Positions 1 through 42,109 of a stretch of 64,000 nucleotides of DNA are shown here, in pieces; the stretch's first letter is position 1, and each line of letters opens with the position of its first letter. Location of the stretch: the sequence record MH791413.1, one strand, 5' to 3'. This DNA is from Escherichia phage EcSzw_1. The notes beneath the pieces are model-generated. The model was not told the DNA's origin. It ran no database searches and worked only from the letters and a program-made list of their open reading frames with translations. A program made the position numbers and the translations under genes.

Positions 1-1064
1 GTAGCCCTTAACAGCCTTGTAACATACCCTTTGCAAAATTTTAAAATATCATTAACAAATTCTTAACAACTCTATCAATCTCTTAACATCTCTTCAAAGG
101 TCTTAACAGATTCTTAACAGGACTAACAAGGGTGTAACAGTTATTTAACAAGTGCTACATAGTCTTTACAGAATCTTAACAGATGACTAACAAGAGCTAA
201 CAAGTTAATTTTAAAGGGTTATTTTGTTAAGATAATTAACAAGTTCCTAACAAGTGTTTAATCCTTTTAACAAGCTGTTAACATGGTCACTATCTCTTCT
301 CTTCTCGTTCCCTTAACTTCTCAGTGAATCTCTAAACATCCTCTTAAAAGCTCTGTATAGCTCTGTATAGCCTCTTTTAAGCCCCTTGTAAGGTAACTAT
401 AGCCCAAGTAACTGTAAAGGGCTTTACAGGGCTTTATAGGGGCTTTAAAGGGTATGCCAAGTTGACTAACAAGGATTTAACAAGGTCTTAACAATGATTT
501 AACATACCCCTAACAAGGGTAACTATGCAGGAGTTGTTAAGAATTTGTTAAGAAAATGTTAAGGGGGNTAGCATTTACGTAACTTTTAAGCCACTTTTAA
601 GCAACTTTATAGCCCCTATAACATACTTTTAAGACAATAACAAGCCCTTTTTAGTAGTTCACAAGGGACTAACGAGATGATAAAGCTTGATACCTTATAA
701 GATTCTTTTAAGGCCATAGAAAGCTCTATAAATGGCTTTTAAGAGTGGGTTAATATGATTGCTTAAGTTAGGTTGATAAGCTGTTATAGGGCTTTATAGA
801 GCGTTTTAGAGGGTTGCCCTCCCCTTTGGGTTATGGGCTTATATTTAAGTTGATTTGATAAGATGATATAGAGTAAGCTATAGAGTTATTATTTTTAAGG
901 TCTGGTAAGATTCTCTAAGAGTCTGCATAGGGATTGCATAGACGTAAAAAAGCCCCTATGAGATAGATTCTATGAAGGTAATTCATTACCTGAATCACTA
1001 TCGAATCCATAGAAAGGGGCTGTTAAGGTATCTGGGGCTATTTTAGCCCCGTTGCGGCGTCTCG
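1..1064. repeat. Non-coding repeat-dense region with a dense array of YTAACA(A/G)G-type motifs, CTTTTAAG motifs, short tandem repeats and fragments of the early promoter cassette
   Basis: No ORF of 60 aa or more in any frame. At least 25 copies of (C)TTAACAAG / CTAACAAGG in both orientations within 1-660 (18 in the first 290 bp). Tandem GCTCTGTATAG x2 (350-371) and GGGCTTTAnAGG x3 (418-449). CTTTTAAGCCCCTTGTAA at 377-394 matches the cassette seen upstream of genes at 2142-2222 and 6333-6415. Confidence 0.6.
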
Positions 1065-1313
1065 TTAGTTATGACCGTCCTTGTCATAGTAAAGAGAAAT
1101 GATTTTATCGTTCCAATAGTGCCAATGATTACCATCTTTCACCGCCTCTTGGATAGCTGCAATCCAAAAATCCGATTCAGGGTTATAATCCTTGACAATC
1201 TGGCTAACAAGGCTTTTCACCATATCAAAAGCACTATCTGTACTGATAATGTCAAATTTAACATCCAGTGAGTAAAAACCATATTCGTTAACAGTTGCGC
1301 GGATAGTTGCCAT
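1065..1313 (-). CDS. Hypothetical small early protein (82 aa)
   Basis: ORF in track; ATG at 1311-1313 directly preceded by conserved SD/leader cassette. Confidence 0.5.
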   Translation of the reverse strand: MATIRATVNEYGFYSLDVKFDIISTDSAFDMVKSLVSQIVKDYNPESDFWIAAIQEAVKDGNHWHYWNDKIISLYYDKDGHN

Positions 1314-1400
1314 CTTTGATTCTCCAGTTTAGGATTGATTTGGTAAAGCTCTTTATCTGGGGCTTATACTATCGAACTATAAACCCCTTGTAAAGCACTT
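1314..1400 (-). promoter_or_regulatory. Early promoter/leader cassette copy 1
   Basis: Plus-strand consensus CATTTTGAATCTCCAGTTTAGGATTGATTTGGTAAAGCTCTTTATCTGGGGCTTATACTATCGAACTATAAACCCCTTGTAAAGCAC. On the minus strand: -35 TTTACA (1389-1394), 17-nt spacer, -10 TAGTAT (1366-1371), SD GGAG, ATG. Confidence 0.5.
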
Positions 1401-1598
1401 TTAATACATTTTATCGAATAACTGGTTTATTGCAGCAACTGCATGATTTTTAAAGTTTAAGTTGTTAGTGTTATCAGAAAACACTACTTCAGTGTTGTAA
1501 GTGATTTCTAGTGATACAAACGAACCATTTACATTTAAAGAATAGGATACACCTTTTAAGCACCACAAGGTAGACAGCTTTTGCATTAAATCTTTCAT
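1401..1598 (-). CDS. Hypothetical small early protein (65 aa)
   Basis: ORF in track; ATG at 1596-1598 preceded by conserved leader AAACTGGAGATTCAAG. Confidence 0.5.
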   Translation of the reverse strand: MKDLMQKLSTLWCLKGVSYSLNVNGSFVSLEITYNTEVVFSDNTNNLNFKNHAVAAINQLFDKMY

Positions 1599-1799
1599 CT
1601 TGAATCTCCAGTTTAGGAAGTAAGCTTGATTGCTTGATAGATACTATAGGGCTTTTAGAAAGTGATTGCAAGCCCTTTTTAGTCTTATCTATAAAGAATC
1701 TTTTAAGTGATTCCTTTTAGATAAAACCCCCTCGAACAAATGTACTATTGTCAAGGGGTATCGTCAAGTAATTTTTGAAAGTTTTTTGTAAGTTGTTGA
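1599..1799 (-). promoter_or_regulatory. Early promoter/leader cassette copy 2 (variant, with hairpin)
   Basis: Conserved leader CTTGAATCTCCAGTTTAGGAAG. Minus strand -35 TTGCAA, 17 nt, -10 TATAGT. Hairpin AGGGCTT / AAGCCCT at 1648-1676 followed by T-tract on the plus strand. Confidence 0.4.
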
Positions 1800-2141
1800 T
1801 TAACTTATAAAGATTTTTTCAGGCTTGACGTAGTTCATTTTTTGGCCTTTAAGTAAATCACTCCAGATTAAAGCGGCAATGTGACCATAACCGGATTCAC
1901 GTAGCGCTTTCATCGTGTTGACTTTTGTTTCAAATCGTGTTGCGTAGTATTCACTGTTAAGGGTTGTTTTGTTCCCTTCATTGTCTGTATGAATGATTTG
2001 CATCACATGAAACGGGCTAACATCCTCTCCGAGATTCCATTGCTCAAAGTATTTTAAACACTGCATAGGCGACATATTATCACTGACTCGTGTAGACCAT
2101 GATGAATTTTCTTTATCGGTAATTACGGTTACATGTGCCAT
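1800..2141 (-). CDS. Hypothetical early protein (113 aa)
   Basis: ORF in track; ATG at 2139-2141 followed by cassette. Confidence 0.5.
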   Translation of the reverse strand: MAHVTVITDKENSSWSTRVSDNMSPMQCLKYFEQWNLGEDVSPFHVMQIIHTDNEGNKTTLNSEYYATRFETKVNTMKALRESGYGHIAALIWSDLLKGQKMNYVKPEKIFIS

Positions 2142-2222
2142 CTTTGAATCTCCAGTTTAGGAAAGCTCTTTATCTGGGGCTTATGGTATCAAGCTTTTAA
2201 GCCCCTTGTANTTGTAAATCTC
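2142..2222 (-). promoter_or_regulatory. Early promoter/leader cassette copy 3
   Basis: CTTTGAATCTCCAGTTTAGGAAAGCTCTTTATCTGGGGCTTATGGTATCAAGCTTTTAAGCCCCTTGTA; N at 2211. Confidence 0.45.
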
Positions 2223-2444
2223 TAAAAATTCATCTTCATTAACATTTTCGTAGTATTCTGCGTTTTCGTCTTCACCTTGTAAGACATAGCAGCCCATTCT
2301 AGACGATTTCGGGTATTCTTGTCTAGCAATATTGCAAGCTTCTACCGCGTTTTGTTTAGTTCCTTCAAAGGATTCTAAAACCCCATAATGGCAATTATTA
2401 GCCCCAGAGCATACAGCAAGCATGAGATAGATTGTAGTTAACAT
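2181..2444 (-). CDS. Hypothetical small secreted or lipoprotein-like protein (87 aa)
   Basis: Hydrophobic N-terminus MLTTIYLMLAVCSG. 3' end reads through the N at 2211 into the cassette (C-terminal YKGLKSLIP is cassette-encoded), so the true stop is uncertain. Confidence 0.4.
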   Translation of the reverse strand: MLTTIYLMLAVCSGANNCHYGVLESFEGTKQNAVEACNIARQEYPKSSRMGCYVLQGEDENAEYYENVNEDEFLEIYXYKGLKSLIP

Positions 2445-2507
2445 GATTTAAGCCCCTTGCAAGCCCCTATGCGGGGCTTTTTAATGTTGTTAGTGTGATT
2501 GTATGGT

Positions 2508-3065
2508 TTACGCTAAAACGTCGTTTACAGTGCTTTCTGTTAAGCTTTCCTGCATTGCGTCTAGCATGTTGCAATAGATAATTGAACTATCATCAGTATT
2601 TTGAATAAAGCTTGCAACTTCTTCAAGTTTTTCATCAACATAGCCTAAATTTGGATTTTTTAAGTTAGGTACAAAAAACGGTGAATACATAGAGTTAAAT
2701 TCTGTGATGTAAACCTTTTTAATCCAATCTTTATCAAAAGATTCTGTAAAGCTTGCGATATCACTCATATTTTCACAAGACCAATCATCTTGCAATTCAT
2801 ATTCTGGAATGTCAAGTTCTAAGATAACAATATTTTGGGTTTTCATCTGAAAAGCTGCTGTGATTGTAGCACTATCAAGAGCATTGCGTAAACCTTCATT
2901 AGTAATTTCTTCAGCATTCATAGAATCAAGGTCATAGAATTTATTAACAGGGTAAACGTAAAAACAACCATCACTATCAGAGCAATTCCAAGCGCCTGAT
3001 GGTTTATCACCGCCATTGATGAGGTTTACAAAGTTTTCTTGAGTAGTACCGTGAAAGCATTTCAT
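2508..3065 (-). CDS. Hypothetical early protein (185 aa)
   Basis: ORF in track; ATG at 3063-3065 followed by cassette. Confidence 0.55.
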   Translation of the reverse strand: MKCFHGTTQENFVNLINGGDKPSGAWNCSDSDGCFYVYPVNKFYDLDSMNAEEITNEGLRNALDSATITAAFQMKTQNIVILELDIPEYELQDDWSCENMSDIASFTESFDKDWIKKVYITEFNSMYSPFFVPNLKNPNLGYVDEKLEEVASFIQNTDDSSIIYCNMLDAMQESLTESTVNDVLA

Positions 3066-3117
3066 TTTGAATCTCCAGTTTAGGATTGATTTGGTAAATC
3101 TCTTTATCTGGGGCTAT
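3066..3117 (-). promoter_or_regulatory. Early promoter/leader cassette copy 4 (interrupted by N run 3118-3124)
   Basis: TTTGAATCTCCAGTTTAGGATTGATTTGGTAAATCTCTTTATCTGGGGCTAT then NNNNNNN. Confidence 0.4.
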
Positions 3118-3368
3118 NNNNNNNTAGTTTTCTTTGAGAAAATTAGTTTAACTGCAACCGTGGGAAGTTCTTCAATACTTGTAAAAAGCGTTACCTTTTG
3201 AGTAACAACCTTGTAACCATTTTTTGCAGCGTATGCCGTGAAACGATTAACCGTATAACTATAAGTTTTTGATGTGTTGTCTGACATATGGTACAAATAG
3301 GGCTTGCCTAAATTTTGAGATTGTGTTAACAGTCGGCAAGTATCAGGAACGTTTAAATAATTAAGCAT
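3114..3368 (-). CDS. Hypothetical small early protein (about 84 aa; 3' end obscured by N run)
   Basis: ORF in track; ATG at 3366-3368; C-terminal codons contain the N run. Confidence 0.4.
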   Translation of the reverse strand: MLNYLNVPDTCRLLTQSQNLGKPYLYHMSDNTSKTYSYTVNRFTAYAAKNGYKVVTQKVTLFTSIEELPTVAVKLIFSKKTXXX

Positions 3369-3453
3369 TTAGATTCTCCAGTTTAGGAAGTGGGATTGCT
3401 TGCCCGTCTGATAAGTAATTTAAGCTATTTAAAAACCAGTGTCAATAGATTTT
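3369..3453 (-). promoter_or_regulatory. Early promoter/leader cassette copy 5 (B-type)
   Basis: TTAGATTCTCCAGTTTAGGAAGTGGGATTGCTTGCCCGTCTGATAAGTAATTT; same B-type at 4211 and 6787. Confidence 0.4.
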
Positions 3454-3858
3454 TTAAAGTTCTGCGTAAATTGCATCACAGATATCACGAAAATCATAGC
3501 TTGTCAAGTTACGTTGTAACCATGTTGCGAAAAAATCAGCTATTGCAAAATTTGCATCATACTCAACAGATAACCACACTTTTACAGCAAATCGAAACAT
3601 TTTCAAGTCAAGTTCTTTATTCATTACTTTTGATTTGCCTAACATGTCAACCATTTCATATTGTGCGCCGTCAAGTGTAACACCTGATGCAACATTTGCA
3701 AGTGAATTTTTTACGCTTTCAACGTCTAAGATTGCACCTTGAATCTTTCCGATAATGTTATGCAGTGTTTCGTCTGGTGCTGCTGATGTAATTACGTTGA
3801 TGCGATTAACGGTCAAACGTGCTTTCAGGATTGCAGTGTCACGAGTATTCATAGCCAT
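3454..3858 (-). CDS. Hypothetical early protein (134 aa)
   Basis: ORF in track; ATG at 3856-3858 followed by cassette. Confidence 0.5.
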   Translation of the reverse strand: MAMNTRDTAILKARLTVNRINVITSAAPDETLHNIIGKIQGAILDVESVKNSLANVASGVTLDGAQYEMVDMLGKSKVMNKELDLKMFRFAVKVWLSVEYDANFAIADFFATWLQRNLTSYDFRDICDAIYAEL

Positions 3859-3945
3859 TTTTAAATCTCCAGTTTAGGGGTTATCGATAAAATCTCTTTA
3901 TCTGGGGCTATACTAGCAAACTTTATAACCCCATGTAANAGACTA
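3859..3945 (-). promoter_or_regulatory. Early promoter/leader cassette copy 6
   Basis: TTTTAAATCTCCAGTTTAGGGGTTATCGATAAAATCTCTTTATCTGGGGCTATACTAGCAAACTTTATAACCCCATGTAA; N at 3939. Confidence 0.45.
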
Positions 3946-4210
3946 AATACAACTTTTTCCCGTTAACAATGATGTAACTTACACCGCTATTGCTGTAAAC
4001 ATCTTGATAGATTCTGCGTAACTTGCCTGAATAGCGCACTTTCCAAGATGTAGGAATCTTTTTACCGTATCCGGTGGATGTTTTTTGTAAACCTGCTAAT
4101 TGCCAATCTAAAATGTGTTGTTCTGCTGTTAACTCTTCAAAGTTTAATACGCCGTCTACATAGTGCTTTAAAGTAACGTTTAAGGTGTGACCATTATTTG
4201 TAGTATACAT
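3923..4210 (-). CDS. Hypothetical small early protein (95 aa)
   Basis: ORF in track; 3' end overlaps cassette and contains N at 3939. Confidence 0.4.
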   Translation of the reverse strand: MYTTNNGHTLNVTLKHYVDGVLNFEELTAEQHILDWQLAGLQKTSTGYGKKIPTSWKVRYSGKLRRIYQDVYSNSGVSYIIVNGKKLYLVXYMGL

Positions 4211-4302
4211 TTTGAATCTCCAGTTTAGGAAGTGGGCTTGCTTGCCCGTCTGATAAGTAATTTACTTGTTTCCGTTACCAGTTGCAAGCCCTTTTTAGAA
4301 AT
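4211..4302 (-). promoter_or_regulatory. Early promoter/leader cassette copy 7 (B-type)
   Basis: TTTGAATCTCCAGTTTAGGAAGTGGGCTTGCTTGCCCGTCTGATAAGTAATTTA plus GTTGCAAGCCCTTTTTAG element shared with copy 2. Confidence 0.4.
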
Positions 4303-4626
4303 TTATTTCCGTTTGCTTATCTCGTGAACAATAACAGCGTGATAATCTTTCAAATTACTAATATTTAAAGCATTTAGTAAAGCATTATAATCATCAACTA
4401 ACTGAAAATCACCGCTTAGAATGTCACTAACCTGATATGTGTTAGCCTTGAATCTGAAGCCCATCTCTAAACGCTTTAATTGTTCTACGTTTAAACGCTC
4501 TAGAAAGGACGTCACAAGGTTATTATTGATTTGCCTTGTGATTGCATCACTTGCCGCCTGATGCGCTTTATAGGCTTTATACAGTGCTAAAATAGCAATA
4601 AATAAGGCAACTCCAGAAATTAGCAT
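4303..4626 (-). CDS. Hypothetical membrane protein (107 aa)
   Basis: N-terminal hydrophobic helix MLISGVALFIAILALY; start overlaps end of upstream gene. Confidence 0.5.
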   Translation of the reverse strand: MLISGVALFIAILALYKAYKAHQAASDAITRQINNNLVTSFLERLNVEQLKRLEMGFRFKANTYQVSDILSGDFQLVDDYNALLNALNISNLKDYHAVIVHEISKRK

Positions 4627-4916
4627 GATGATTTACCTTTATGAAATAGTTTACCAGTGTGACTAATCTCAAAAGAATCTATCATATCTTTTGTTGATTT
4701 AACAGAACTTTTATTTGCATTGTCATAGATATCTACCTGAAGCAATGGCTTTTTGTATTCTTTACAAAAGTTCCAAATACAGACAACAACTTCTTTACCA
4801 TTGATTTTTCCGTGATACCATTCTGTTACTTCATGAGTACGGCGCATAGATTCTACAAATTTGATATCTTGTAAAAGTTTGCTCAACTTGGAACGTACAT
4901 TTGCAGCAATAAACAT
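4620..4916 (-). CDS. Hypothetical early protein (98 aa)
   Basis: ORF in track; ATG at 4914-4916 followed by cassette. Confidence 0.5.
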   Translation of the reverse strand: MFIAANVRSKLSKLLQDIKFVESMRRTHEVTEWYHGKINGKEVVVCIWNFCKEYKKPLLQVDIYDNANKSSVKSTKDMIDSFEISHTGKLFHKGKSSC

Positions 4917-5006
4917 TTTAGAATCTCCAGTTTAGGATTGATTTGGTAAATCTCTTTATCTGGGGCTATNCTTATCAACCTGATAACCCCATGTAAAGCA
5001 ATTTAT
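4917..5006 (-). promoter_or_regulatory. Early promoter/leader cassette copy 8
   Basis: TTTAGAATCTCCAGTTTAGGATTGATTTGGTAAATCTCTTTATCTGGGGCTAT(N)CTTATCAACCTGATAACCCCATGTAAAGCAAT. Confidence 0.45.
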
Positions 5007-5519
5007 TTAGATATCAAAAATATTCATCATTAAATCTTTCAAGGCTTCTAAACGTTCCATGACTTCAGATTCTGCGTCTGCGTTGCTTACTTCCTCTTTT
5101 AGTCTATCCTCTAAATCGTCGCCGTCGCTATAGCACCAATCAAAGGCATATCCAAGATAAAAACTATCTAAAACCGTGTTTCCGTTTGCAGCTACAACTT
5201 TTGCAGATAGGCTATATTCTGAAGCCTCTAAATCCCTTTCTAGTTCTTTCTGTAAGCTGATGTAAGCCTCTCGTGATGGATTTTCCCGGCCTTGTTTTGC
5301 ATAGTCGCTAGAAAGCTGTTTAAGGCTATAGCGTAAAGGGATTGCATATTCAAATTCATTACGTTGATAGTTAGGATTCTTAATAGTTACCCCGCCTTGA
5401 TGGTTGTTTGTAAATTCCCAATCACTGATGTTATGGCTTGCTTCATAGCAGTTAACAGCTTCATATATGATAGAGAATTTCTCTTTTACAACTTCAAAGG
5501 TAGCGTCTACAGTTTTCAT
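5007..5519 (-). CDS. Hypothetical early protein (170 aa)
   Basis: ORF in track; ATG at 5517-5519 followed by cassette. Confidence 0.55.
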   Translation of the reverse strand: MKTVDATFEVVKEKFSIIYEAVNCYEASHNISDWEFTNNHQGGVTIKNPNYQRNEFEYAIPLRYSLKQLSSDYAKQGRENPSREAYISLQKELERDLEASEYSLSAKVVAANGNTVLDSFYLGYAFDWCYSDGDDLEDRLKEEVSNADAESEVMERLEALKDLMMNIFDI

Positions 5520-5604
5520 TTTGAATCTCCAGTTTAGGATTGATTGTAAAGCTCTTTATCTGGGGCTTATATTAGCAACTCATAAACCCCATGTAAAGCA
5601 CTTT
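5520..5604 (-). promoter_or_regulatory. Early promoter/leader cassette copy 9
   Basis: Minus strand -35 TTTACA, 17 nt, -10 TAATAT, SD GGAG; plus-strand TTGAATCTCCAGTTTAGGATTGATTGTAAAGCTCTTTATCTGGGGCTTATATTAGCAACTCATAAACCCCATGTAAAGCAC. Confidence 0.5.
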
Positions 5605-5862
5605 TTAGATTAAATTTGCAGTTAATGCCAAGTGCATTTTATAACCTTGTATAGTGTAAACATTGGTTTTACCAATAGTCTTTACACCTTTGAAAAGGTT
5701 GTAAGAGTTATGCTTTAAGTTTAATTGCTTGTCACACTTTACGCCCCATCTTACAGCAGAATCTTTCCCGTTGTCAATCACTTTTCCGTCTAAATCTTTT
5801 GCCAGTAAACGAGCGTTATCACGAGTTTTTGCATTAACTACTACGTTTTTGATGATAGCCAT
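5605..5862 (-). CDS. Hypothetical small early protein (85 aa)
   Basis: ORF in track; ATG at 5860-5862 followed by cassette. Confidence 0.5.
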   Translation of the reverse strand: MAIIKNVVVNAKTRDNARLLAKDLDGKVIDNGKDSAVRWGVKCDKQLNLKHNSYNLFKGVKTIGKTNVYTIQGYKMHLALTANLI

Positions 5863-5951
5863 TTTTGAATCTCCAGTTTAGGGGTTATTGATAAAATCTC
5901 TTTATCTGGGGCTTATACTATCGAACTATAAACCCCCTGTAAAGCACTTTA
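5863..5951 (-). promoter_or_regulatory. Early promoter/leader cassette copy 10
   Basis: Near-identical to copy 1 (GGGGCTTATACTATCGAACTATAAACCCCCTGTAAAGCAC); -35 TTTACA, 17 nt, -10 TAGTAT on the minus strand. Confidence 0.5.
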
Positions 5952-6332
5952 TTAGCTAATTTTAAAGATAGTCACATAGCCATCACTACCAATCATCTGA
6001 GAAACACCAGCTTTCTCGACATTGTAACCCATTTTATCAAGATGGTAAATTGCATCTTCATAGCCGTAGGCATCACCTTGATAACGTCTCTTCTCACATT
6101 TTATCAAGGTTTTACCACGTCCAGCAAGTGCATTAATGATAGCTTTATCACCTGATAAACTACCATCTAACATAGTTGCGCGATAATGGTTTATTTTGTT
6201 GCCATTTACATCATACTTAAAATTATATGCGTGAACAACAATTATTTTACCTTTGAATTTTTCATCAAGTGTTTTCTCCAGTACATCGCGGAAGTTTTCT
6301 TTATTGATGAATTTAGGCGCACGATATTTCAT
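5952..6332 (-). CDS. Hypothetical early protein (126 aa)
   Basis: ORF in track; ATG at 6330-6332 followed by cassette. Confidence 0.55.
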   Translation of the reverse strand: MKYRAPKFINKENFRDVLEKTLDEKFKGKIIVVHAYNFKYDVNGNKINHYRATMLDGSLSGDKAIINALAGRGKTLIKCEKRRYQGDAYGYEDAIYHLDKMGYNVEKAGVSQMIGSDGYVTIFKIS

Positions 6333-6415
6333 TTTGAATCTCCAGTTTAGGATTGATTATAAAGCTCTTTATCTGGGGCTTATGGTATCAAGCTTTTAAG
6401 CCCCTTGTANGCAAT
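6333..6415 (-). promoter_or_regulatory. Early promoter/leader cassette copy 11
   Basis: Near-identical to copy 3 (…GGGGCTTATGGTATCAAGCTTTTAAGCCCCTTGTA); N at 6410. Confidence 0.45.
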
Positions 6416-6568
6416 AATTTTTATAACTTCTTTTAGTGTGATGTTTTCGCCATTTGTCAAGGCTAAACATTTGTTACCAGTGCATGACAAGTAACTAAAC
6501 GAGACTTTACCAGTTTTAGAAAATCCGTCAAGCCCTTTGTAAGTGATGATAGAGTTTTCTTTTATCAT
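6380..6568 (-). CDS. Hypothetical small early protein (62 aa)
   Basis: ORF in track; 3' end reads through N at 6410 into cassette (same cassette-encoded C-terminus YKGLKSLIP as 2181..2444). Confidence 0.35.
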   Translation of the reverse strand: MIKENSIITYKGLDGFSKTGKVSFSYLSCTGNKCLALTNGENITLKEVIKIIXYKGLKSLIP

Positions 6569-6579
6569 TCATCAAGCCC

Positions 6580-6786
6580 TTAAACGTCATAATAGTAAAT
6601 TGCAGTATGTCTAATATGCTTTCTTGTGTGAGTTGTCAAGTAACAATCTGAATTAATTGACGTGTTTACATATGTATCATAATCTTTCTCTGATATACGT
6701 TGCCACACATCACAAATTAGCATATAAAAGCGACGATGTTTAGTCTCAGTATTATCTACAATCATTAACTCACGTTGATATAACAT
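6580..6786 (-). CDS. Hypothetical small early protein (68 aa; start moved to ATG at 6784-6786)
   Basis: Track ORF starts at a TTG at 6834 inside the cassette. The ATG at 6784-6786 sits at the same distance from the TCTCCAGTTTAGG leader as in all other copies. Confidence 0.5.
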   Translation of the reverse strand: MLYQRELMIVDNTETKHRRFYMLICDVWQRISEKDYDTYVNTSINSDCYLTTHTRKHIRHTAIYYYDV

Positions 6787-6870
6787 TTTGAATCTCCAGT
6801 TTAGGAAGTGGTCTTGTTTGCCCGTCTGATGCAAATACTAAATAACTTTGTTTTGCAGGTCAAGCAAATT
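6787..6870 (-). promoter_or_regulatory. Early promoter/leader cassette copy 12 (B-type)
   Basis: TTTGAATCTCCAGTTTAGGAAGTGGTCTTGTTTGCCCGTCTGATGCAAAT. Confidence 0.4.
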
Positions 6871-6983
6871 TTTAAAAATATTTTCAGGAATTGCCAGAGA
6901 TGAACGGGCGCACGACTACCACAAAACATAGCACAAATCAAGAATTATTTTTCAGTTCTCTACAGATTTTTCTCTTGACTTTT

Positions 6984-7019
6984 GGGGAGAGGGGGAGTAA
7001 GAGGGGGAGAGGGGCAGGG
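6984..7019. repeat. G-tract cluster (GGGG, GGGGG, GGGGG, GGGG, GGG), potential G-quadruplex; C-rich on the transcribed minus strand
   Basis: TTTGGGGAGAGGGGGAGTAAGAGGGGGAGAGGGGCAGGGC read directly; compositionally unusual against the AT-rich surroundings. Confidence 0.5.
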
Positions 7020-7036
7020 CTGGCACTATCTACCTA

Positions 7037-7219
7037 CCTGCACAATTCTAAAATGATTTTTCTTGCCCGACACTCGCCGGGTCTGCACGTTTTGAAAATG
7101 AAAAATCTCTTTGGAGTCCACCTGCACAAATTGAAAATGAATTTTCCCTTTGGAGTTCAAAATTTTCTCTACAGATTTCTGTCCAGACTTTTACCTGCAC
7201 AATTTTAAAATGAAAAAGC
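7037..7219. repeat. Four direct repeats of a ~26 bp unit CCTGCACAAWTTNAAAATGAWWWWNC (starts 7037, 7082, 7121, 7194) plus two copies each of CTCTACAGATTT (6959, 7167) and CTTTGGAGTYCA (7108, 7148)
   Basis: Read directly from sequence; the only ORF across it (6891..7208 +) translates repeats and the G-tract. Confidence 0.55.
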
Positions 7220-7286
7220 CCTCCTTACCTGAAAATTTTACCAGATAAGAAAGGCTTAGTCTATTGTGAATATGCTACAGAGTTTC

Positions 7287-8069
7287 TTAGTTCTTTGCAG
7301 CTAAGAACTTGATGTTAGAAATGTCTACAATTGCTTCAGCATCTTTCTCATTTGCTGCAAGAATGTACACATCAGGTTCACTTCCAAATGTCACTGCACG
7401 TTGCATACTACCTTTCAACGGCGGGGTAACTTGAGCGTTACTTAGAGACATTCTCTCAACCGGAGGGTTACTCTGATGTACCTTGTTCTTACGATGCCTG
7501 AAGAGGATAACTCCGTCTTCGTTGACAACGGCTACCCCTGCAAAGTATTGTGGTTCACTGTGATTACCCCATGTTGACAGAGTACTAAACATTGCCTCTT
7601 CAAATACGTAAAGGTAAACATCAACATCTTTCAAGATGTGATTCATAATTACCACAACAGCTTTCGGGTCAAGTCCACCAATACCTGCACCAATCATTGG
7701 GAGACCAACTTTCTTCAGTTGATTCACTTTGCAGTACTGGCTAAGACTCAACAAAGCACTCTCAAGAGCATTGTAACGAGCATCTTTACCAGTCTTCAAC
7801 TGAGTGTATAGGTTAGCAATACGGCCTTGTTTAAGACGTGATACAGAGAGTTTACCAAGCAGTTTCTGACAAGGTTTATGCTCTCTTCCTCCTGCTACAC
7901 GGTAGACTTCGGCATCAGTTTCATAGGCTTTTGGGTAACCTTTAGAAATCTTGTAAGCAATACCTGCACCCATCAGGTTCATACAGTTGCAACCGTGACC
8001 AATGATATCAAACTTACCTTTTTCAAAGTCTGCGAAGATATCACCTTTGATGACTTTTACAATACCCAT
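7287..8069 (-). CDS. Macrodomain protein (ADP-ribose binding or hydrolase; TARG1/DarG-like signature) with uncharacterised C-terminal extension
   Basis: N-terminal VIKGDIFADF…DIIGHGCNCMNLMGAGIAYKI matches the GDxF … H-x-C … MGAGIA pattern of TARG1/OARD1-type macrodomains (from memory); about 110 aa C-terminal region unassigned. Confidence 0.65.
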   Translation of the reverse strand: MGIVKVIKGDIFADFEKGKFDIIGHGCNCMNLMGAGIAYKISKGYPKAYETDAEVYRVAGGREHKPCQKLLGKLSVSRLKQGRIANLYTQLKTGKDARYNALESALLSLSQYCKVNQLKKVGLPMIGAGIGGLDPKAVVVIMNHILKDVDVYLYVFEEAMFSTLSTWGNHSEPQYFAGVAVVNEDGVILFRHRKNKVHQSNPPVERMSLSNAQVTPPLKGSMQRAVTFGSEPDVYILAANEKDAEAIVDISNIKFLAAKN

Positions 8070-10256: not shown

Positions 10257-10952
10257 TTAGTGTTTGATAAGCATTGTGTTAATTTCTGGAAGGATTCGTT
10301 TAACCTTCTCAACATTCCTTACTGTATCTTCTATAAAACATACTACATCATAGTACGGAAGAATGCAAGACTGAATCATACGAACTTTCAAACTTTCTGC
10401 ACTGATTCTATTTGAACCAAAACCACGCATAAAAAGCATGTAGTCAGTCACGATATGCTTGTCAATAAACAAATGGGTTGGTACACGTTGAGACTCACCA
10501 CGAGCAGTTAAAACACCGATTGCAGCACTTTTATGGATGCCTGAAATGATATTAAAGATGTACGTAGGTTGTGCATCAACTGACTCAATCAAGTTTGTAT
10601 ACTGTGACAGAGTGCCATCTTCCAGATATGTTGAGTTTGTTGGCTTATCAAACTTAGTGAGAACACCATCAATATCTGTTAAAACCATTGGCTTCTTCAT
10701 ATCAAGGTCTTTTGCAACCAAGATTAAGCTGTCACGTTTAACGGCTACTGACTTACCTGTTTGAAGGTCTGTACAGAGAACTGTTTCAGCAGATGAATGA
10801 AAGTCTTTGAAGTCACATTCAACAGCCCTTGCAGTATCTGCAAAGTCTTCTTTCATAAGGTCTGTCCAGCTTGCAGCACTGATATCTATAGCCAGAGGGT
10901 TGATATCGTAAGCGTGACAAAATACCTTATCCAATTGTTTTAATTCGCTCAT
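10257..10952 (-). CDS. HAD-superfamily hydrolase (putative nucleotidase or phosphatase)
   Basis: HAD motif I LTDIDGVLT; track start is a TTG at 10994; ATG at 10950-10952 with upstream AAGG chosen. Confidence 0.55.
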   Translation of the reverse strand: MSELKQLDKVFCHAYDINPLAIDISAASWTDLMKEDFADTARAVECDFKDFHSSAETVLCTDLQTGKSVAVKRDSLILVAKDLDMKKPMVLTDIDGVLTKFDKPTNSTYLEDGTLSQYTNLIESVDAQPTYIFNIISGIHKSAAIGVLTARGESQRVPTHLFIDKHIVTDYMLFMRGFGSNRISAESLKVRMIQSCILPYYDVVCFIEDTVRNVEKVKRILPEINTMLIKH

Positions 10953-11478
10953 GTTTAACCTTTTTGATGTTTGTTGCAAACTCACATTGAGCAAGCACCT
11001 TCATGTTATTGTACACATCTTGAGAGTATTGTCTAGCTTTCGGAATACGGTATGAATAACCTGCATTGTATGAAGCTAAGACACGCTGTAAAGAGTATTT
11101 CCCATTAGGATTACCATGAACCTTAGTCCAGAACTGAAGCTCTTTGTGTGTCTCCTTTGCAGCATAATCGAAGTCTCTGATAAGTTTCTTCTTAGCTACG
11201 TTTGGGTTAACTTTGTTACGCTTTACAACAGTCTTCAAGTGATTCTGGAACAAACCATAATCGTGAGTCTTTTTATTTTCAAGACGAAGACCTAACTCTG
11301 ACTCTTGTAAGGCTATAGCGGCTAAGGTTAATCCCCAACCTTTACCCATCTCTTTCTCACCGTAGTGATAAGCTTTAAGCATGTTTGTTTTCTGACTGAT
11401 GGATAACTCTGGACAGTCTGAAGCGACTGCCAAATGTGCTGTTAAGAATAAGCACAAACCTAAAATGAACTTCTTCAT
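10927..11478 (-). CDS. Lytic transglycosylase (SLT domain) with Sec signal peptide
   Basis: Signal peptide MKKFILGLCLFLTAHLAVA; SLT motifs QESELG, YGLFQ, SYNAGYS. Confidence 0.6.
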   Translation of the reverse strand: MKKFILGLCLFLTAHLAVASDCPELSISQKTNMLKAYHYGEKEMGKGWGLTLAAIALQESELGLRLENKKTHDYGLFQNHLKTVVKRNKVNPNVAKKKLIRDFDYAAKETHKELQFWTKVHGNPNGKYSLQRVLASYNAGYSYRIPKARQYSQDVYNNMKVLAQCEFATNIKKVKHERIKTIG

Positions 11479-40086: not shown

Positions 40087-40092
40087 TTAATG

Positions 40093-40121
40093 TTGACAGG
40101 GTGCTCATGGAAGAGTACCTT
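40093..40121 (+). promoter_or_regulatory. Possible sigma70-like promoter downstream of DNA polymerase gene
   Basis: TTGACA (40093-40098), 17 nt, TACCTT (weak -10). Confidence 0.3.
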
Positions 40122-40148
40122 ATGCAACATATCGTATAGGAGAACTCT

Positions 40149-40358
40149 ATGAGCCATCGTGGTCGGACTCACCTTGCAATGATGAAAGGTGCTTCAAAGG
40201 AGACTATCAAGAACCGTAAGCAGAAGTTGTTTGAGAGAATGAACAGACTCATTGACAACACTTCTCTTTCTGGTAGTGAGAAGGTTTTCTTGAAAGGAAA
40301 TCTGAAGAGTATTGCACAGGAACTTATGGATATTGAATTTTGGAGAAACCAAAAATGA
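40149..40358 (+). CDS. Hypothetical protein (69 aa)
   Basis: ORF in track; SD TAGGAG upstream. Confidence 0.45.
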   Translation: MSHRGRTHLAMMKGASKETIKNRKQKLFERMNRLIDNTSLSGSEKVFLKGNLKSIAQELMDIEFWRNQK

Positions 40359-40567
40359 CTTATGAAGAAGCTGTTGAAGCAATGAAGCAAGGTAAGAAAG
40401 TTCGTAACGAGAACTTCACATCTGATGAGTTCTTTGAAATGAAAGATGGAAAGATTGTCTGTGAAATGGGTTACCCGATGGCTTCATGGTATCGTGGCCT
40501 TGATTGGCAGAAATCTGGGTGGAGTATTGTGCAAGATTCTCCAAAAGCATCTGACTTATTCTTTTAA
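40340..40567 (+). CDS. Hypothetical protein (75 aa)
   Basis: ORF in track. Confidence 0.45.
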   Translation: MEKPKMTYEEAVEAMKQGKKVRNENFTSDEFFEMKDGKIVCEMGYPMASWYRGLDWQKSGWSIVQDSPKASDLFF

Positions 40568-40577
40568 GGAAAACCCT

Positions 40578-40784
40578 ATGCAAGTTTTAGTAAACTATAT
40601 CTACCGTTATGATGTTGTTCACTCCACTACAACGGTAGCTCAACGTAATCCAATTGTGCCACGAGAAGGTGAATGGGTTCGTATTGAAGGTTGGACTTAC
40701 ACTGTAGAGAACATCATTCACAAGTTTGATGTTGCTGGTGATGTTCAGGTTATTGATGTAGAAATTGGTGGGAAGAGAAAATGA
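40578..40784 (+). CDS. Hypothetical protein (68 aa; start set to ATG 40578)
   Basis: ATG preceded by AAGGA; longer track ORF overlaps upstream gene. Confidence 0.4.
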   Translation: MQVLVNYIYRYDVVHSTTTVAQRNPIVPREGEWVRIEGWTYTVENIIHKFDVAGDVQVIDVEIGGKRK

Positions 40785-40972
40785 GTAAAGAAGATAAATT
40801 CAAGAATGCTGTAAGAACTGAAGATGGAAAAGTTGAGTCTTTCACTCTTAAAGTTGGTGGCAAACCATTCCATTGCCGTTGTGGAGCAAACTGTTTCCAT
40901 AAACCTAACAAAGATGATTTAGAACTTTACACATGTAACTCATGTGACACTTGGTATCATTCTGGAGATTGA
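40781..40972 (+). CDS. Small zinc-finger protein (63 aa)
   Basis: CRCGANCFHK … CNSCD cysteine pairs. Confidence 0.45.
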   Translation: MSKEDKFKNAVRTEDGKVESFTLKVGGKPFHCRCGANCFHKPNKDDLELYTCNSCDTWYHSGD

Positions 40973-40974
40973 GG

Positions 40975-42075
40975 ATGACAATTCTGTACAAACAAAACAA
41001 AGATGGCTCTTTTAACGTCTGGTCATGCGTTGCCGTAGGTGACAAAGTTGTTACCACGTATGGTAAAGAAAATGGCAAGATGATGTTTGAAGAGTACACA
41101 GCAGAACCGAAAAACATCGGTAAAAAGAATGAGCGTAATGCTGAACAGCAAGCTCTCTTTGAAGTTGCTGCTAAGTATAAGAAGCAGGTTGACCGTAAAG
41201 GTTATGCTTACACAAAATCTGAAGCAGAGAACACTGAAAAGGTTGGTGTACAACTCGCACAAGATGCTGCAAAGGTAAGTCATGCAAAGTATTTGAAGTT
41301 CCCTGCTGATGCTCAACCTAAGCTTGATGGTGTTCGTTGCCGTATATCAAGAGACACGGACTCAGTGAACTTCACAGCTTATTCCCGTGAAAATACTGTG
41401 TACAACGTACCTGAAGAGTTGATTCCAGACTTGCTGCTGATGATTAAATGCCACCCACAAGTTCAAGATTTTGATGGTGAAATCTATGCTCACGGATGGG
41501 ATTTAGAAGATATTGTATCTATGATTAAGAATGCTGACAATCCAGACCGTCACCTACTTAAATTCTACTGGTATGATATCTGCGACAAAACTAAAACTTG
41601 GCCTGAGCGTCGTGAAATCATTGATAACTCGCCAATTGTTGAACTCGGTGATGCTTGCAGGGTTGTACCTGTTCAAACTATCCGTGTTAACTCTTGGGAA
41701 GAGTTTGACAAAGCCCATGATAATTGGGTTAAGCTGAAGTTTGAAGGGGCAATGTACCGTTCCATCTCAGCAGATTCTTTCTATGAGTGTGGTCACCGTT
41801 CATACTTCCTGATTAAGCATAAGAAGATGCACACGGAAGAATTTAAAGTAACTGGTGTGAAAACTGATAAGCGTGGTCATGGTAAATTCGTTGTAGAGAC
41901 ACTCCCTAACGTCTTTGTGGATGTTTCATGGAAAACTACCCATGAGAAGAAACAGTATCTTGCTGAACACCCTGAAGAGTTTATCGGGAAACCTTTGACG
42001 GTTCAGTTCCAGAAGATGACTCGTAAGGGGTCTTTGCAGTTCCCTGTTGGTCTCGTTATACGAGATTATGAATAA
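40975..42075 (+). CDS. ATP-dependent DNA ligase
   Basis: Nucleotidyltransferase motifs I KLDGVRC, III FDGEIYA, IV FEGAMYR, V FLIKHKK; start set to ATG 40975 with SD GGAG. Confidence 0.8.
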   Translation: MTILYKQNKDGSFNVWSCVAVGDKVVTTYGKENGKMMFEEYTAEPKNIGKKNERNAEQQALFEVAAKYKKQVDRKGYAYTKSEAENTEKVGVQLAQDAAKVSHAKYLKFPADAQPKLDGVRCRISRDTDSVNFTAYSRENTVYNVPEELIPDLLLMIKCHPQVQDFDGEIYAHGWDLEDIVSMIKNADNPDRHLLKFYWYDICDKTKTWPERREIIDNSPIVELGDACRVVPVQTIRVNSWEEFDKAHDNWVKLKFEGAMYRSISADSFYECGHRSYFLIKHKKMHTEEFKVTGVKTDKRGHGKFVVETLPNVFVDVSWKTTHEKKQYLAEHPEEFIGKPLTVQFQKMTRKGSLQFPVGLVIRDYE

Positions 42076-42081
42076 AAGTTG

Positions 42082-42109
42082 TTGACATACACTCTCCGGT
42101 AGTTATACT
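42082..42109 (+). promoter_or_regulatory. Strong sigma70-like promoter with flanking 9-bp inverted repeat
   Basis: TTGACA (42082-42087), 16 nt, TATACT (42104-42109); inverted repeat CCGGTAGTT (42097-42105) / AACTACCGG (42133-42141). Confidence 0.55.

What the first reader, a model, noticed from the sequence alone, without database searches (positions are those of the whole stretch)
1065..6870. Twelve copies of a conserved promoter/leader cassette driving an array of small early genes
Nearly every small minus-strand gene between 1065 and 6786 is immediately preceded by an ~80 bp near-identical cassette. On the transcribed strand it reads -35 TTTACA, 17 nt, -10 TAGTAT or TAATAT, then a conserved leader CCCCAGATAAAGAG…AAACTGGAGATTCAAAATG with a GGAG Shine-Dalgarno. 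Three sub-variants exist (A, B with GGGMTTGCTTGCCCGTCTGATAAG, C with GGGGTTATYGATAAAATC). Such repeated promoter/leader units resemble the promoter-early stem-loop elements of T4-like phages and would give uniform strong early expression and substrates for homologous recombination that shuffle early genes. Two gene 3' ends are encoded by the cassette itself (identical C-terminal YKGLKSLIP in 2181..2444 and 6380..6568).
Basis: seen in the sequence. Interest (0 to 1): 0.65.

Follow-up and report, generated by a model that had tools for sequence, protein, structure and literature searches.

The report
Repeated promoter-hairpin cassettes shuffle early genes
A Felix O1-like phage places nearly the same promoter, hairpin and ribosome-binding unit in front of a dozen small early genes, and relatives show that genes are swapped in and out at these units, as in T4-like phages.

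Summary
The repeat is real. The window is an Ounavirinae (Suspvirus) phage, 99.7% identical to Escherichia phage EcSzw-2. Twelve minus-strand genes between 1065 and 6786 are each preceded by an exact CCTAAACTGGAGA. It occurs exactly nowhere else in the 64 kb. Only the last ~25 nt, a ribosome-binding region (TIR), is common to all twelve. Upstream there are two architectures. Type A (8 copies) is TTTACA-17-TAnnnT with a G/C-clamped 9-bp hairpin overlapping the -10, then the leader AGATAAAGAG. Type B (4 copies) is a sigma-70-like promoter followed by a hairpin near the 5' end of the leader. The type A stem covaries across four genera. Comparison with EP1, SUSP2, Felix O1 and BPS15Q2 gives five whole-gene indels and one gene replacement. 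All their junctions lie in the TIR, at the adjoining ATG, or in 63-90-nt cassette repeats. This matches the promoter-early stem-loop (PeSL) architecture of T4-like phages, in another subfamily. Parts of the repeat were noted before in Felix O1 (2010) and Mordin (2015) without this interpretation. The shared "YKGLKSLIP" C-termini are assembly-gap artefacts: each N hides about 10 nt, including the stop codon. Promoter activity, expression strength and timing are untested here.

The parts
6784..6870 (-). Cassette c12, type B. First promoter of the array: TTGACC-17-TAGTAT, leader ..ATCAGACGGGCAAACAAGACCACTT, TIR CCTAAACTGGAGATTCAAAATG. Drives the 68-aa gene 6580-6786.
6330..6415 (-). Cassette c11, type A. 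The -10 is TACCAT and the stem is GGGGCTTA/TAAGCCCC. Its 5' part is lost at the assembly gap N 6410. Drives the 126-aa gene 5952-6332.
5860..5950 (-). Cassette c10, type A: TTTACA-17-TAGTAT, stem GGGGTTTAT/ATAAGCCCC. The leader is the sub-variant with GATAAAgagaTTTTATC. Drives the 85-aa gene 5605-5862.
5517..5604 (-). Cassette c09, type A: TTTACA-17-TAATAT. Drives the 170-aa gene 5007-5519.
4914..5004 (-). Cassette c08, type A with the short-arm stem GGGGTTAT/ATAGCCCC. N at 4970 lies in the -10. Drives the 98-aa gene 4620-4916; the 107-aa gene 4303-4626 follows with overlapping start and stop and has no cassette.
4208..4295 (-). Cassette c07, type B: TTGCAA-17-TAAATT, then a 5' leader hairpin GGGCaagcaaGCCC and the TIR. 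Drives the 95-aa gene 3923-4210.
3856..3946 (-). Cassette c06, type A, with the TTATCGATAA leader sub-variant. The -35 is damaged by the gap N 3939. Drives the 134-aa gene 3454-3858.
3366..3450 (-). Cassette c05, type B: TTGACA-17-TAAATT, leader hairpin, TIR. Drives the 84-aa gene 3114-3368. This gene and the promoter after it are absent from phage EP1, where the junction is a chimeric TIR.
3063..3124 (-). Cassette c04, type A. Only the 3' stem arm, leader and TIR are present; the promoter half is replaced by 7 N (3118-3124). Drives the 185-aa gene 2508-3065.
2139..2215 (-). Cassette c03, type A with a shortened leader (..GAGCTTT|CCTAAACTGGAG). N 2211 hides the stop codon of gene 2181-2444. 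Drives the 113-aa gene 1800-2141. Compared with SUSP2, this is the junction of a 195-nt deletion.
1596..1680 (-). Cassette c02, degenerate type B: TTGCAA-17-TATAGT, weak leader hairpin AAGCaatcaaGCTT, TIR. Drives the 65-aa gene 1401-1598, which is replaced by an unrelated 175-aa gene in SUSP2 and EP1.
1311..1400 (-). Cassette c01, type A: TTTACA-17-TAGTAT. Drives the last gene of the array, 82 aa, 1065-1313. The same gene carries a type B cassette in SUSP2, EP1 and Felix O1.
1065..6786 (-). Array of 15 small genes (62-185 aa as called). All match PHROGs of unknown function and none matches Pfam. Twelve have a cassette. Three do not: 6380-6568, 4303-4626 and 2181-2444.
1027..1050 (-). Cassette remnant GGGGCTAAAATAGCCCCAGATACC after the last gene. 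It has the stem and the start of the type A leader, but no TIR or gene.
   Evidence: read directly; also present in SUSP2
946..1020 (-). Long GC-clamped hairpin followed by TTTTTT. It is the probable terminator that closes the array and corresponds to t23 of Felix O1.
   Evidence: Felix O1 Table 2
7206..7257 (-). Intrinsic terminator (17-bp stem plus T-run) that isolates the array from the upstream macro-domain gene. It corresponds to t13 of Felix O1.

Best explanation
The array is the hyperplastic early-gene region of an Ounavirinae phage. It is built from composite expression and recombination modules of the PeSL kind.

Type A module:
- A host sigma-70 promoter (TTTACA, 17 nt, TAnnnT) lies inside an imperfect palindrome of about 46 nt. 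The inner 9-bp stem (GGGGUUUAU/AUAAGCCCC) flanks the -10.
- Transcription is predicted to start at the A of AGATAAAGAG. The hairpin is therefore absent from the module's own mRNA. It forms only in RNA reading through from the upstream gene, just after that gene's stop codon.
- There it most likely attenuates read-through or stabilises the upstream 3' end.

Type B module:
- A near-consensus promoter is followed, 2-4 nt into the transcript, by a stable 5' hairpin of variable sequence. I infer that this is an mRNA stabiliser.

Both types end in the same ~25-nt translation-initiation region, UCC[UAAACU]GGAG-N7-8-AUG. Because this is the only segment shared by all modules, it serves as the common homology handle. 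Recombination between two TIRs, or between two whole same-type cassettes, deletes, inserts or replaces a unit made of one CDS plus the promoter that follows it. Every survivor keeps a promoter and a ribosome-binding site.

Shown here: the repeat, its anatomy, stem covariation, and junctions in relatives.
Inferred: promoter activity, transcription start site, early timing, and the roles of the hairpins.
For: Repeat and anatomy:
- establish the repeat and its two families.
- Promoter signature: -35 TTTACA is nearly invariant. The T-12, A-11 and T-7 positions of the -10 are kept at a 17-18-nt spacing in 31 type A copies from five genomes in four genera, while the other loop positions vary.

Hairpin:
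- 97% of cells are paired, against 83% in shuffles (0 of 500 reach it) and 20-58% when the partner is slid.
- Four pairs show compensatory double changes. These include G-C to U-A in the Erwinia phage and a compensated 1-nt shortening of both arms.
- U.G, C-G and U-A alternate at one pair, which points to RNA-level pairing.
- The fold energy is -14 to -20 kcal/mol, z -3 to -5.3.
- Type B leader hairpins have different sequences at the same position, -8 to -15 kcal/mol in most copies and weaker in a few, e.g. c02, c05, c12.

Distribution:
- The cassette occurs in 287 phage records. By name nearly all are phages of enterobacteria or Erwinia, and every record inspected is Ounavirinae. These include 29 Erwinia phages at 84-87% identity over 77 nt.

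Recombination:
- WIN vs SUSP2: a 195-nt indel with its junction inside CCTAAACTGGAG, and a gene replacement bounded by ATG and TIR.
- WIN vs EP1: loss of gene 18 leaves a chimeric TIR. A 98.4%-identity block (1594-3085) is bounded by TIRs, with 94.4% flanks.
- Felix O1 vs BPS15Q2: three indels of 849, 1226 and 331 nt, each flanked by 90-, 68- and 63-nt cassette repeats.
- The same gene carries different cassette types in different phages, and gene order is permuted in the Erwinia phage.

Timing:
- In Felix O1 RT-PCR, ORFs 16, 20, 21 and 22 of the homologous array peak at 5 min.

Precedent:
- The PeSL architecture, its tested promoter and terminator activity, and its mini-circles are described in PMC2839356 and PMC4122927.
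Against: - There are no transcript data for this phage or genus. The start site, promoter strength and early timing are inferred.
- The generic promoter scan is weakly discriminating: 32 sites against 21.9 +/- 5.2 expected in the region.
- The type A hairpin has no U-tract, so it is not a canonical intrinsic terminator.
- The outer helix (CUUUA/UAAAG) is invariant, so covariation cannot test it.
- Cassette copies are paralogues and orthologues, so the shuffle statistics overstate independence.
- Felix O1 ORFs 17, 19 and 23 peaked at 25 min, not 5 min.
- The TIR 12-mer is exact in 44 of 60 copies across three genera. That is more conservation than a passive homology handle needs, so it probably has a sequence-specific role not captured here.
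- Junction evidence rests on six relatives (EP1, SUSP2, Felix O1, BPS15Q2, Mordin, Pistou), not a population survey.
Confidence: 0.72

Rival explanations
1. The conserved TIR is mainly a cis-regulatory RNA site. It would be a small SD-containing hairpin, UCC[UAAACU]GGA, bound or cut by a phage- or host-encoded factor that switches the early genes off together. That would resemble the operators of T4 RegA/RegB or of the MS2 coat protein, or whatever the start-associated sequences of mycobacteriophages do. Recombination at the TIR would then be a by-product. This partly overlaps with the best explanation.
For: - The 12-mer is exact in 44 of 60 TIRs from three genera whose coding DNA is only 77-80% identical.
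- Conservation extends well beyond the 4-nt SD.
- The Felixounavirus allele CCTTAAACTAGGAG equals the common allele plus one extra U-A pair around the same loop. The Erwinia phage alleles keep CCU...AGG.
- SD nucleotides are predicted paired with probability 0.81, against 0.52 for 64 other genes in the window.
- TIR variants are genus-specific.
Against: - The stem is only 3-4 bp (-1.3 to -3.6 kcal/mol). Its outer pair is missing in roughly a quarter of unique variants.
- The register shifts between genera, so this is not clean covariation.
- The copies are not independent.
- No candidate factor was found. The only 'RegB' annotation in the subfamily is an SLT-domain protein.
- GGAG is not conserved in the Erwinia phage, whose SD is AGGAA.
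Confidence: 0.2
2. The type A palindromes are mainly intergenic RNA processing or termination sites in a long early transcript made from the first promoter, like the RNase III sites between T7 early genes. On this view the promoter-like hexamers inside them are incidental.
For: - The hairpin is stable, sits right after each stop codon, and shows RNA-type covariation with G.U intermediates.
- A strong promoter (c12) precedes the array, and terminators flank the array.
Against: - The three critical -10 positions and the -35 keep their exact spacing while the rest of the loop varies freely. Pairing does not require that.
- Type B units in the same positions are plain promoters with no hairpin over the -10.
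- In PeSLs of the same build, promoter activity was shown by experiment.
Confidence: 0.1
3. The units are selfish palindromic mobile elements (REP- or MITE-like) that spread between genes and play no part in expression.
For: They are multi-copy, palindromic and intergenic. A solo copy occurs in Mordin and a remnant lies at 1027-1050.
Against: - All copies have one orientation.
- Each ends 7-8 nt before an ATG and supplies the only SD of that gene.
- They are confined to one array in 64 kb.
- They are conserved across four genera.
- There are no terminal inverted repeats with target duplications.
Confidence: 0.03
4. The repeat is a coding-region repeat or an assembly artefact.
For: - In the window, four ORFs run into cassettes (2181-2444, 3114-3368, 3923-4210, 6380-6568).
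- The assembly breaks (N) inside cassettes.
- The nearest GenBank record is flagged UNVERIFIED and is misjoined.
Against: - Ungapped relatives have stop codons before every cassette.
- PHROG profiles end before the cassettes.
- The cassette is present in 287 independent records.
Confidence: 0.01

Closest known systems
PeSLs (promoter-early stem-loops) of T4-like phages RB49/phi1, T4/PST and KVP40/nt-1 (Arbiol et al. 2010, PMC2839356; Comeau et al. 2014, PMC4122927)
   Same: - Repeated intergenic units of about 90-100 nt.
- A sigma-70-like early promoter.
- A poly-G/poly-C stem-loop between -35 and -10 or overlapping the -10.
- SD and ATG at the 3' end.
- Clustered in a hyperplastic region of small genes of unknown function.
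- Indels and replacements between close relatives have junctions in the units.
   Different: - The host subfamily is Ounavirinae, not T4-like.
- No sequence relationship to T4-type PeSLs was tested.
- Two promoter architectures share one TIR.
- Several junctions lie in the 25-nt TIR rather than in the promoter or stem-loop.
- The palindrome extends to pair the -35 region with the first transcribed bases.
- Promoter and terminator activity and mini-circles are untested here.
Start-associated sequences (SAS/ESAS) of Cluster K mycobacteriophages (Pope et al. 2011, PMC3203893)
   Same: - A conserved asymmetric block containing the SD lies a few nt before the ATG of many non-structural genes.
- It has one orientation and is linked to genes of different families.
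- A subset has inverted repeats just upstream.
- Its function is unknown.
- The Mordin genome announcement already drew this comparison for the 26-bp CCAACAATCCTAAACTGGAGAATCTA (PMC4611695).
   Different: - The sequence and host are unrelated.
- The SAS is 13 bp (GGGATAGGAGCCC).
- Departures in the ESAS inverted repeats do not support RNA pairing, whereas the stems here covary.
- The upstream part here is a recognisable sigma-70 promoter.
Direct repeats reported in Felix O1 (Whichard et al. 2010, PMC3185647)
   Same: They are the same element. The 57-bp repeat CTTTACATGGGGCTTAAAAGTCTGTAAAGTAAGCCCCAGATAAAGAGCTTTACCACT is a type A cassette. The 39-bp TTGACACTGGTTTTTAGATAGATTAAATTACACATCAAC is a type B promoter.
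   Different: That paper listed them only as direct repeats. It did not include them among its predicted promoters and stated that temporal control of transcription was unknown.
5'-terminal stem-loop mRNA stabilisers of E. coli, such as the ompA 5' UTR (from my own knowledge: Emory, Bouvet and Belasco 1992)
   Same: Type B leaders place a stable hairpin an estimated 2-4 nt from the predicted 5' end. That is the geometry known to protect mRNA from 5'-end-dependent RNase E decay.
   Different: The 5' end is only predicted here, and no stability data exist.
RNase III processing hairpins between T7 early genes (from my own knowledge)
   Same: Irregular intergenic hairpins with an internal loop lie between consecutive early genes and would remain at the 3' end of the upstream message.
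   Different: The stems here have about 14 bp in all, which is short for RNase III. Each also contains a promoter. Cleavage is untested.

Membership tests
PeSL (promoter-early stem-loop) cassettes | Repeated intergenic motif of about 100 bp present in many copies in one genome | tested here: met
   There are 12 copies in 5.8 kb and none elsewhere in the 64 kb. Only the 3' 25 nt are common to all; 8 copies share about 90 nt.
PeSL (promoter-early stem-loop) cassettes | Sequence matching the E. coli sigma-70 -35/-10 consensus | tested here: met
   Type A is TTTACA-17/18-TAnnnT. Type B is TTGACA or TTGCAA-17-TAAATT. This is a sequence match only.
PeSL (promoter-early stem-loop) cassettes | AT-rich tract upstream of the -35 | tested here: inconclusive
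   A-rich runs such as TAAATAAA and CTAAAAA precede the -35. They include the upstream stop codon and are only a little richer in A+T than the genome.
PeSL (promoter-early stem-loop) cassettes | Stable stem-loop with poly-G/poly-C arms, placed between -35 and -10 or overlapping the -10 | tested here: met
   GGGGYUUAU/AUAAGCCCC flanks the -10. 97% of cells pair, 4 pairs show compensatory changes, and the energy is -14 to -20 kcal/mol. This holds for type A only. Type B has its hairpin after the start site, except in the Erwinia phage.
PeSL (promoter-early stem-loop) cassettes | Shine-Dalgarno sequence and start codon of the downstream gene at the 3' end | tested here: met
   GGAG lies 7-8 nt before the ATG in all 12 copies.
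PeSL (promoter-early stem-loop) cassettes | Located in hyperplastic regions next to small genes without known homologues | tested here: met
   All 15 genes match PHROGs of unknown function and none matches Pfam. Gene content differs among all seven genomes compared. At least 80% megablast coverage is found in 3 records, against 16 and 22 for control regions.
PeSL (promoter-early stem-loop) cassettes | Indels and replacements between close relatives have junctions in the cassettes | tested here: met
   Five indels and one gene replacement have junctions in the TIR, at the ATG, or in 63-90-nt cassette repeats.
PeSL (promoter-early stem-loop) cassettes | Promoter and terminator/attenuator activity shown in vivo; circular excision products detectable | not testable with these tools
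   This needs reporter fusions, transcript end mapping and inverse PCR.
PeSL (promoter-early stem-loop) cassettes | Occurrence in T4-like myoviruses | tested here: not met
   The host genome is Ounavirinae, Suspvirus. PeSL is a functional class rather than a homologous family, so this limits the claim to 'same kind, other lineage'.
Start-associated sequences (SAS) | Conserved asymmetric block containing the SD, 3-7 nt before the ATG of many non-structural genes, in one orientation, and rare elsewhere | tested here: met
   The criteria were read.
Start-associated sequences (SAS) | The consensus GGGATAGGAGCCC and occurrence in Cluster K mycobacteriophages | tested here: not met
   The sequence here is CCTAAACTGGAG and the hosts are enterobacteria and Erwinia. 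This is an analogy only.
Rho-independent terminator | GC-rich hairpin followed at once by a U-tract | tested here: not met
   The type A stem is followed by AGAUAAAGAG. The terminator scan reports none of the cassettes.
Any curated RNA family (Rfam 15) | Match to a covariance model | tested here: not met
   In 1-8000 the only match with E up to 1 is a chance snoRNA hit (E 0.92, 23.6 bits against a 43-bit threshold).
T4 RegB-type control of GGAG Shine-Dalgarno sites | A RegB endoribonuclease homologue encoded by the phage | tested here: not met
   The gene annotated 'putative RegB' in Erwinia phage Pistou, and its homologue at window 10927-11478, match the SLT transglycosylase domain. Neither matched a RegB model. 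The rest of the genome was not scanned.

The most novel reading that the evidence does not exclude
The shared 25-nt translation-initiation region is not just a strong ribosome-binding site or a recombination handle. It would be a conserved RNA operator, a small hairpin that presents the Shine-Dalgarno sequence. An unidentified phage (or host) factor would use it to control a whole set of otherwise unrelated early genes after transcription, and operator and factor would co-evolve genus by genus. This would be the enterobacterial counterpart of the unexplained start-associated sequences of mycobacteriophages. It would also make that question testable in E. coli.
Probability: 0.15. Interest if true: 0.65.

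Novelty: new member of a known kind. Interest (0 to 1): 0.45.

Why it matters
- It extends the PeSL mechanism beyond T4-like phages to the Felix O1 subfamily, which is widely used in Salmonella typing and biocontrol. In that mechanism the regulatory cassette doubles as the recombination site that swaps accessory genes.
- It explains why the early 'left arm' of these phages differs even between isolates that are 98% identical elsewhere.
- It explains why short-read assemblies of these phages break or misjoin there. The N gaps and the misjoined EcSzw-2 record create false protein C-termini.
- It supplies candidate early promoters that the Felix O1 genome paper could not find.
- The cassettes mark where engineered genes could be inserted with ready-made expression signals.
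- They also mark a pool of about 15 small early proteins of unknown function per phage, which are likely host-takeover or anti-defence candidates.

Tried and rejected
1. RegB-type cleavage of the GGAG sites. An Erwinia relative annotates a 'putative RegB' nearby. That protein and its homologue in the window are SLT-domain proteins with a signal-like N-terminus. I dropped this lead.
2. Cassette-encoded C-termini (YKGLKSLIP). Rejected as gap artefacts.
3. A first within- versus between-genome TIR comparison, anchored on the ATG, was blurred by variable SD-ATG spacing. I repeated it anchored on GGAG. The signal for concerted evolution is modest: 0.71 within genomes, 0.68 for the same gene between genomes, and 0.58 for different genes between genomes.
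4. An SD-sequestering mini-hairpin as a firm structural feature. The support is suggestive only. I kept it as a rival and as the novel reading.
5. A symmetric protein operator as the explanation for the type A palindrome. This is less likely, because one stem position is U.G in 17 of 19 sequences, with C-G and U-A alternatives. That pattern fits RNA pairing rather than DNA half-site symmetry. It is not excluded.
6. Rfam found no family.
7. Literature. No paper in the library combines PeSL with Felix O1. The wV8 paper mentions no promoters or repeats. The phiEa21-4 genome paper could not be read. From memory, it reports a conserved terminator dispersed in that genome, which may be related.
8. 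Several fetched loci never reached the Python sandbox, so ESh22, warpig, KMM4 and Silverhawkium were used only through annotation tables and motif counts.

Full report
**Identity of the window.** Bases 1000-7300 match Escherichia phage EcSzw-2 (MH791400, Ounavirinae, Suspvirus) at 99.7%. They also match 254 other records, and every record inspected is a Felix O1-like phage. The EcSzw-2 record is flagged UNVERIFIED and is misjoined. A 920-bp non-coding block that it places between two array genes belongs next to window 1-383. The window carries 7 N at that point instead.

**The observation.**
- CCTAAACTGGAGA occurs 12 times with no mismatch. All copies are on the minus strand between 1321 and 6805, and no exact copy lies elsewhere in the 64 kb. 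With up to 2 mismatches there are 13 matches, against 1.8 expected.
- GCCCCAGATAAAGAG occurs 8 times, against 0.06 expected.
- Each copy ends 7-8 nt before the ATG of a small gene.
- Aligning 100 nt upstream of the 12 start codons gives only 63% mean column identity. The common part is the last ~25 nt.
- Upstream there are two families.
  - Type A has 8 copies, at ATG 1313, 2141, 3065, 3858, 4916, 5519, 5862 and 6332. It reads (A-rich)-GCTTTACA-N-GGGGYTTAT-loop-ATAAGCCCC-AGATAAAGAG-variable-TIR.
  - Type B has 4 copies, at ATG 1598, 3368, 4210 and 6786. It reads TTGACA or TTGCAA-17-TAAATT or TAGTAT, then ..ATCAGAC-hairpin-ACTT-TIR.
- Three genes have no cassette: 6380-6568, 4303-4626 and 2181-2444.

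**Artefacts.**
- Every N in the region lies inside a cassette: 2211, 3118-3124, 3939, 4970 and 6410.
- A global alignment with SUSP2 (91% identity) shows 9-31 nt missing at four of these five sites. The missing sequence includes the stop codon of the upstream gene and the 5' part of the cassette. For example, SUSP2 and EP1 read caaATAAAGTACTTTACAAGGGG where the window reads caaNtacaagggg. At 4970, SUSP2 shows no missing sequence.
- The PHROG profiles matched by the affected proteins end where the relatives' proteins end.
- The 'shared C-terminus YKGLKSLIP' is therefore read-through caused by assembly gaps. The gaps themselves come from the repeats.

**Promoter signature.**
- In 31 type A copies from the window, SUSP2, Mordin, Felix O1 and the Erwinia phage Pistou, TTTACA is nearly invariant.
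- The hexamer 17-18 nt downstream is always TAnnnT (TAGTAT, TAATAT, TAAGAT, TAAAGT, TACCAT, TATCTT or TAATCT). The neighbouring loop positions vary.
- This is the conservation pattern expected of a sigma-70 -10 element. Pairing does not require it.
- The start site should be the A of AGATAAAGAG. That is an inference.

**Hairpin.**
- The 9-bp stem GGGGUUUAU/AUAAGCCCC pairs in 97% of cells, against 83% in column shuffles (0 of 500 as high) and 20-58% when partners are slid.
- Four pairs carry compensatory double changes. Examples are G-C to U-A in Pistou (GGUG.../...CACC) and a matched 1-nt shortening of both arms (GGGGUUAU/AUAGCCCC).
- One pair alternates between U.G, C-G and U-A.
- RNAalifold adds an invariant outer helix, CUUUA (within the -35) with UAAAG (leader +4 to +8). 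The core is thus an imperfect palindrome of about 46 nt; one search shows it as a reverse-strand near-match.
- Predicted energies are -14 to -20 kcal/mol, z -3 to -5.3.
- The 5' arm lies upstream of the predicted start, so the hairpin can form only in read-through RNA from the upstream gene. It has no U-tract.

**Type B.** Across six genomes the leader carries a hairpin at the same position but with different sequences: GGGC/GCCC, GGGGAGG/CCUUCCCC, GGGGC/GCCCC, GGGGAAG/CUUCCCC and GGGA/UCCC. Most are -8 to -15 kcal/mol, a few are weaker, and they begin an estimated 2-4 nt from the predicted 5' end.

**Distribution.**
- A 96-nt type A cassette finds 287 phage records. Nearly all are named as phages of enterobacteria or Erwinia. 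They include 29 Erwinia phages that keep the first 77 nt at 84-87% identity but use a different TIR, AACAACCCTTAWAAAGGAATCAAAAC-ATG.
- Exact TIR counts per locus are 12-14 in Suspvirus and Mooglevirus, 2-5 in Felixounavirus and 0 in the Erwinia phage.
- Felixounavirus mostly uses the allele CCTTAAACTAGGAG.

**Recombination.** Gene order, with the cassette type before each gene:
- WIN: B9 10 A11 A12 A13 A14 15 B16 A17 B18 A19 20 A21 B22 A23
- EP1: ...A17 B19 20 A21 B33 B59 B23
- SUSP2: ...A19 20 A32 B21 B33 B23
- Felix O1: B9 A13 A14 15 16 A17 B21 B33 B23
- The Erwinia phage has the shared genes in a different order.

Junctions:
- EP1 is 98.6% identical to the window in the adjoining 6.3 kb, yet it lacks gene 18. 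Upstream of gene 19 it has the B promoter and leader of gene 18, fused within CCTAAACTGGAGA to the spacer and ATG of gene 19.
- The block 1594-3085 is 98.4% identical to EP1 while both flanks are 94.4%. The switches fall at TIRs.
- Compared with SUSP2, a 195-nt unit (gene 32 plus a B promoter) is absent from the window, and the junction lies in the TIR.
- Gene 22 is replaced by the unrelated gene 33, between an ATG and the next TIR.
- Felix O1 differs from BPS15Q2 by three insertions or deletions of 849, 1226 and 331 nt. Each is flanked by direct cassette repeats of 90, 68 and 63 nt.
- The exchanged unit is therefore one CDS plus the promoter that follows it, and the TIR is the common handle. 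This explains why the same gene carries type A in one phage and type B in another.

**The TIR.**
- Of 60 TIRs from five genomes in three genera, 44 are exactly CCTAAACTGGAG.
- Anchored on GGAG, paralogous TIRs within a genome are as similar (0.71) as orthologous ones between genomes (0.68), and more similar than non-orthologous ones (0.58). This is a modest sign of homogenisation.
- The TIR can fold as UCC[UAAACU]GGA (-2.7 to -3.6 kcal/mol). The Felixounavirus allele adds a U-A pair around the same loop.
- SD bases are predicted paired with probability 0.81, against 0.52 for 64 other genes. The stem is weak and not universal.
- I treat a regulatory role for the TIR as an open possibility.

**Timing.** In Felix O1 RT-PCR, ORFs 16, 20, 21 and 22 of the homologous array were maximal at 5 min, and ORFs 17, 19 and 23 at 25 min.

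**Comparison with what is known.**
- The anatomy and the genomic behaviour match PeSLs of T4-like phages.
- Pieces of the element were already reported. Felix O1 has 57-bp and 39-bp 'direct repeats'. Mordin has a 26-bp repeat before 8 starts that was likened to mycobacteriophage start-associated sequences.
- No paper in the library links PeSLs to Felix O1-like phages.
- No Rfam family matches.

**Verdict.** This is a real, well-defined element. It is a new member of a known kind, with ordinary but useful consequences and one open question: what the TIR does. All 15 array proteins have unknown function.

Noticed in passing
window 1-1000 (and beyond the left edge): A non-coding stretch of about 1 kb after the array is packed with TTAACA(A/G)-type repeats. 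Fifteen of the 67 TTAACAR sites in the window lie in the first 551 nt, often 11 or 31 nt apart. It might be an origin, a packaging region or a terminal-repeat region.
   Followed up: partly
L002 (MH791400) 2770-3700 and 1-670: The GenBank record of EcSzw-2 is misjoined. A 920-bp piece of the non-coding region described above is inserted between two array genes at a cassette, bounded by N.
   Followed up: yes
window 6870-7290: A 420-bp non-coding region lies between a strong terminator and the first array promoter. It holds 3-4 copies of a ~30-nt repeat ending in TTGTGCAGG(T) on the minus strand. Two or three copies are conserved at the same place in all enterobacterial Ounavirinae loci fetched, but not in the Erwinia phage. 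The + strand ORF annotated there in some records is probably spurious.
   Followed up: partly
window 10927-11478 (-); L007 989-1501: The gene annotated 'putative T4 endoribonuclease RegB' in Erwinia phages, and its 44%-identical homologue here, match the SLT lytic transglycosylase domain and have a hydrophobic N-terminus. The RegB name looks like an annotation error.
   Followed up: yes
window 7287-8069 (-): The gene annotated 'putative phosphatase' just upstream of the array carries a Macro (ADP-ribose-binding) domain, E 2.7e-8.
   Followed up: no
window 2455-2480 (-): The hairpin AAAAGCCCCGCATAGGGGCTT lies just upstream of gene 2181-2444, which has no cassette. It is conserved in SUSP2 and Mordin. 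Its T-run is on the opposite (+) strand only.
   Followed up: no
L001 (Mordin) about 5750-5870, minus strand: Two type A promoter and hairpin units lie in tandem with no gene between them, where other phages have a gene. This looks like the footprint of a cassette-to-cassette deletion.
   Followed up: partly
L012 (Erwinia phage Pistou) 8600-13500: The Erwinia phage has a second promoter and hairpin class (TTGCAA/TTTACA-GGGGTTAyGGTTATGAGAyTATAACCCC) and its own uniform TIR. It also has a terminator whose loop contains CTTTACA.
   Followed up: partly
window 40000-46300: Relatives annotate a 'transcriptional regulator/repressor' in this conserved block. It is a candidate for control of the early cassettes.
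   Followed up: no
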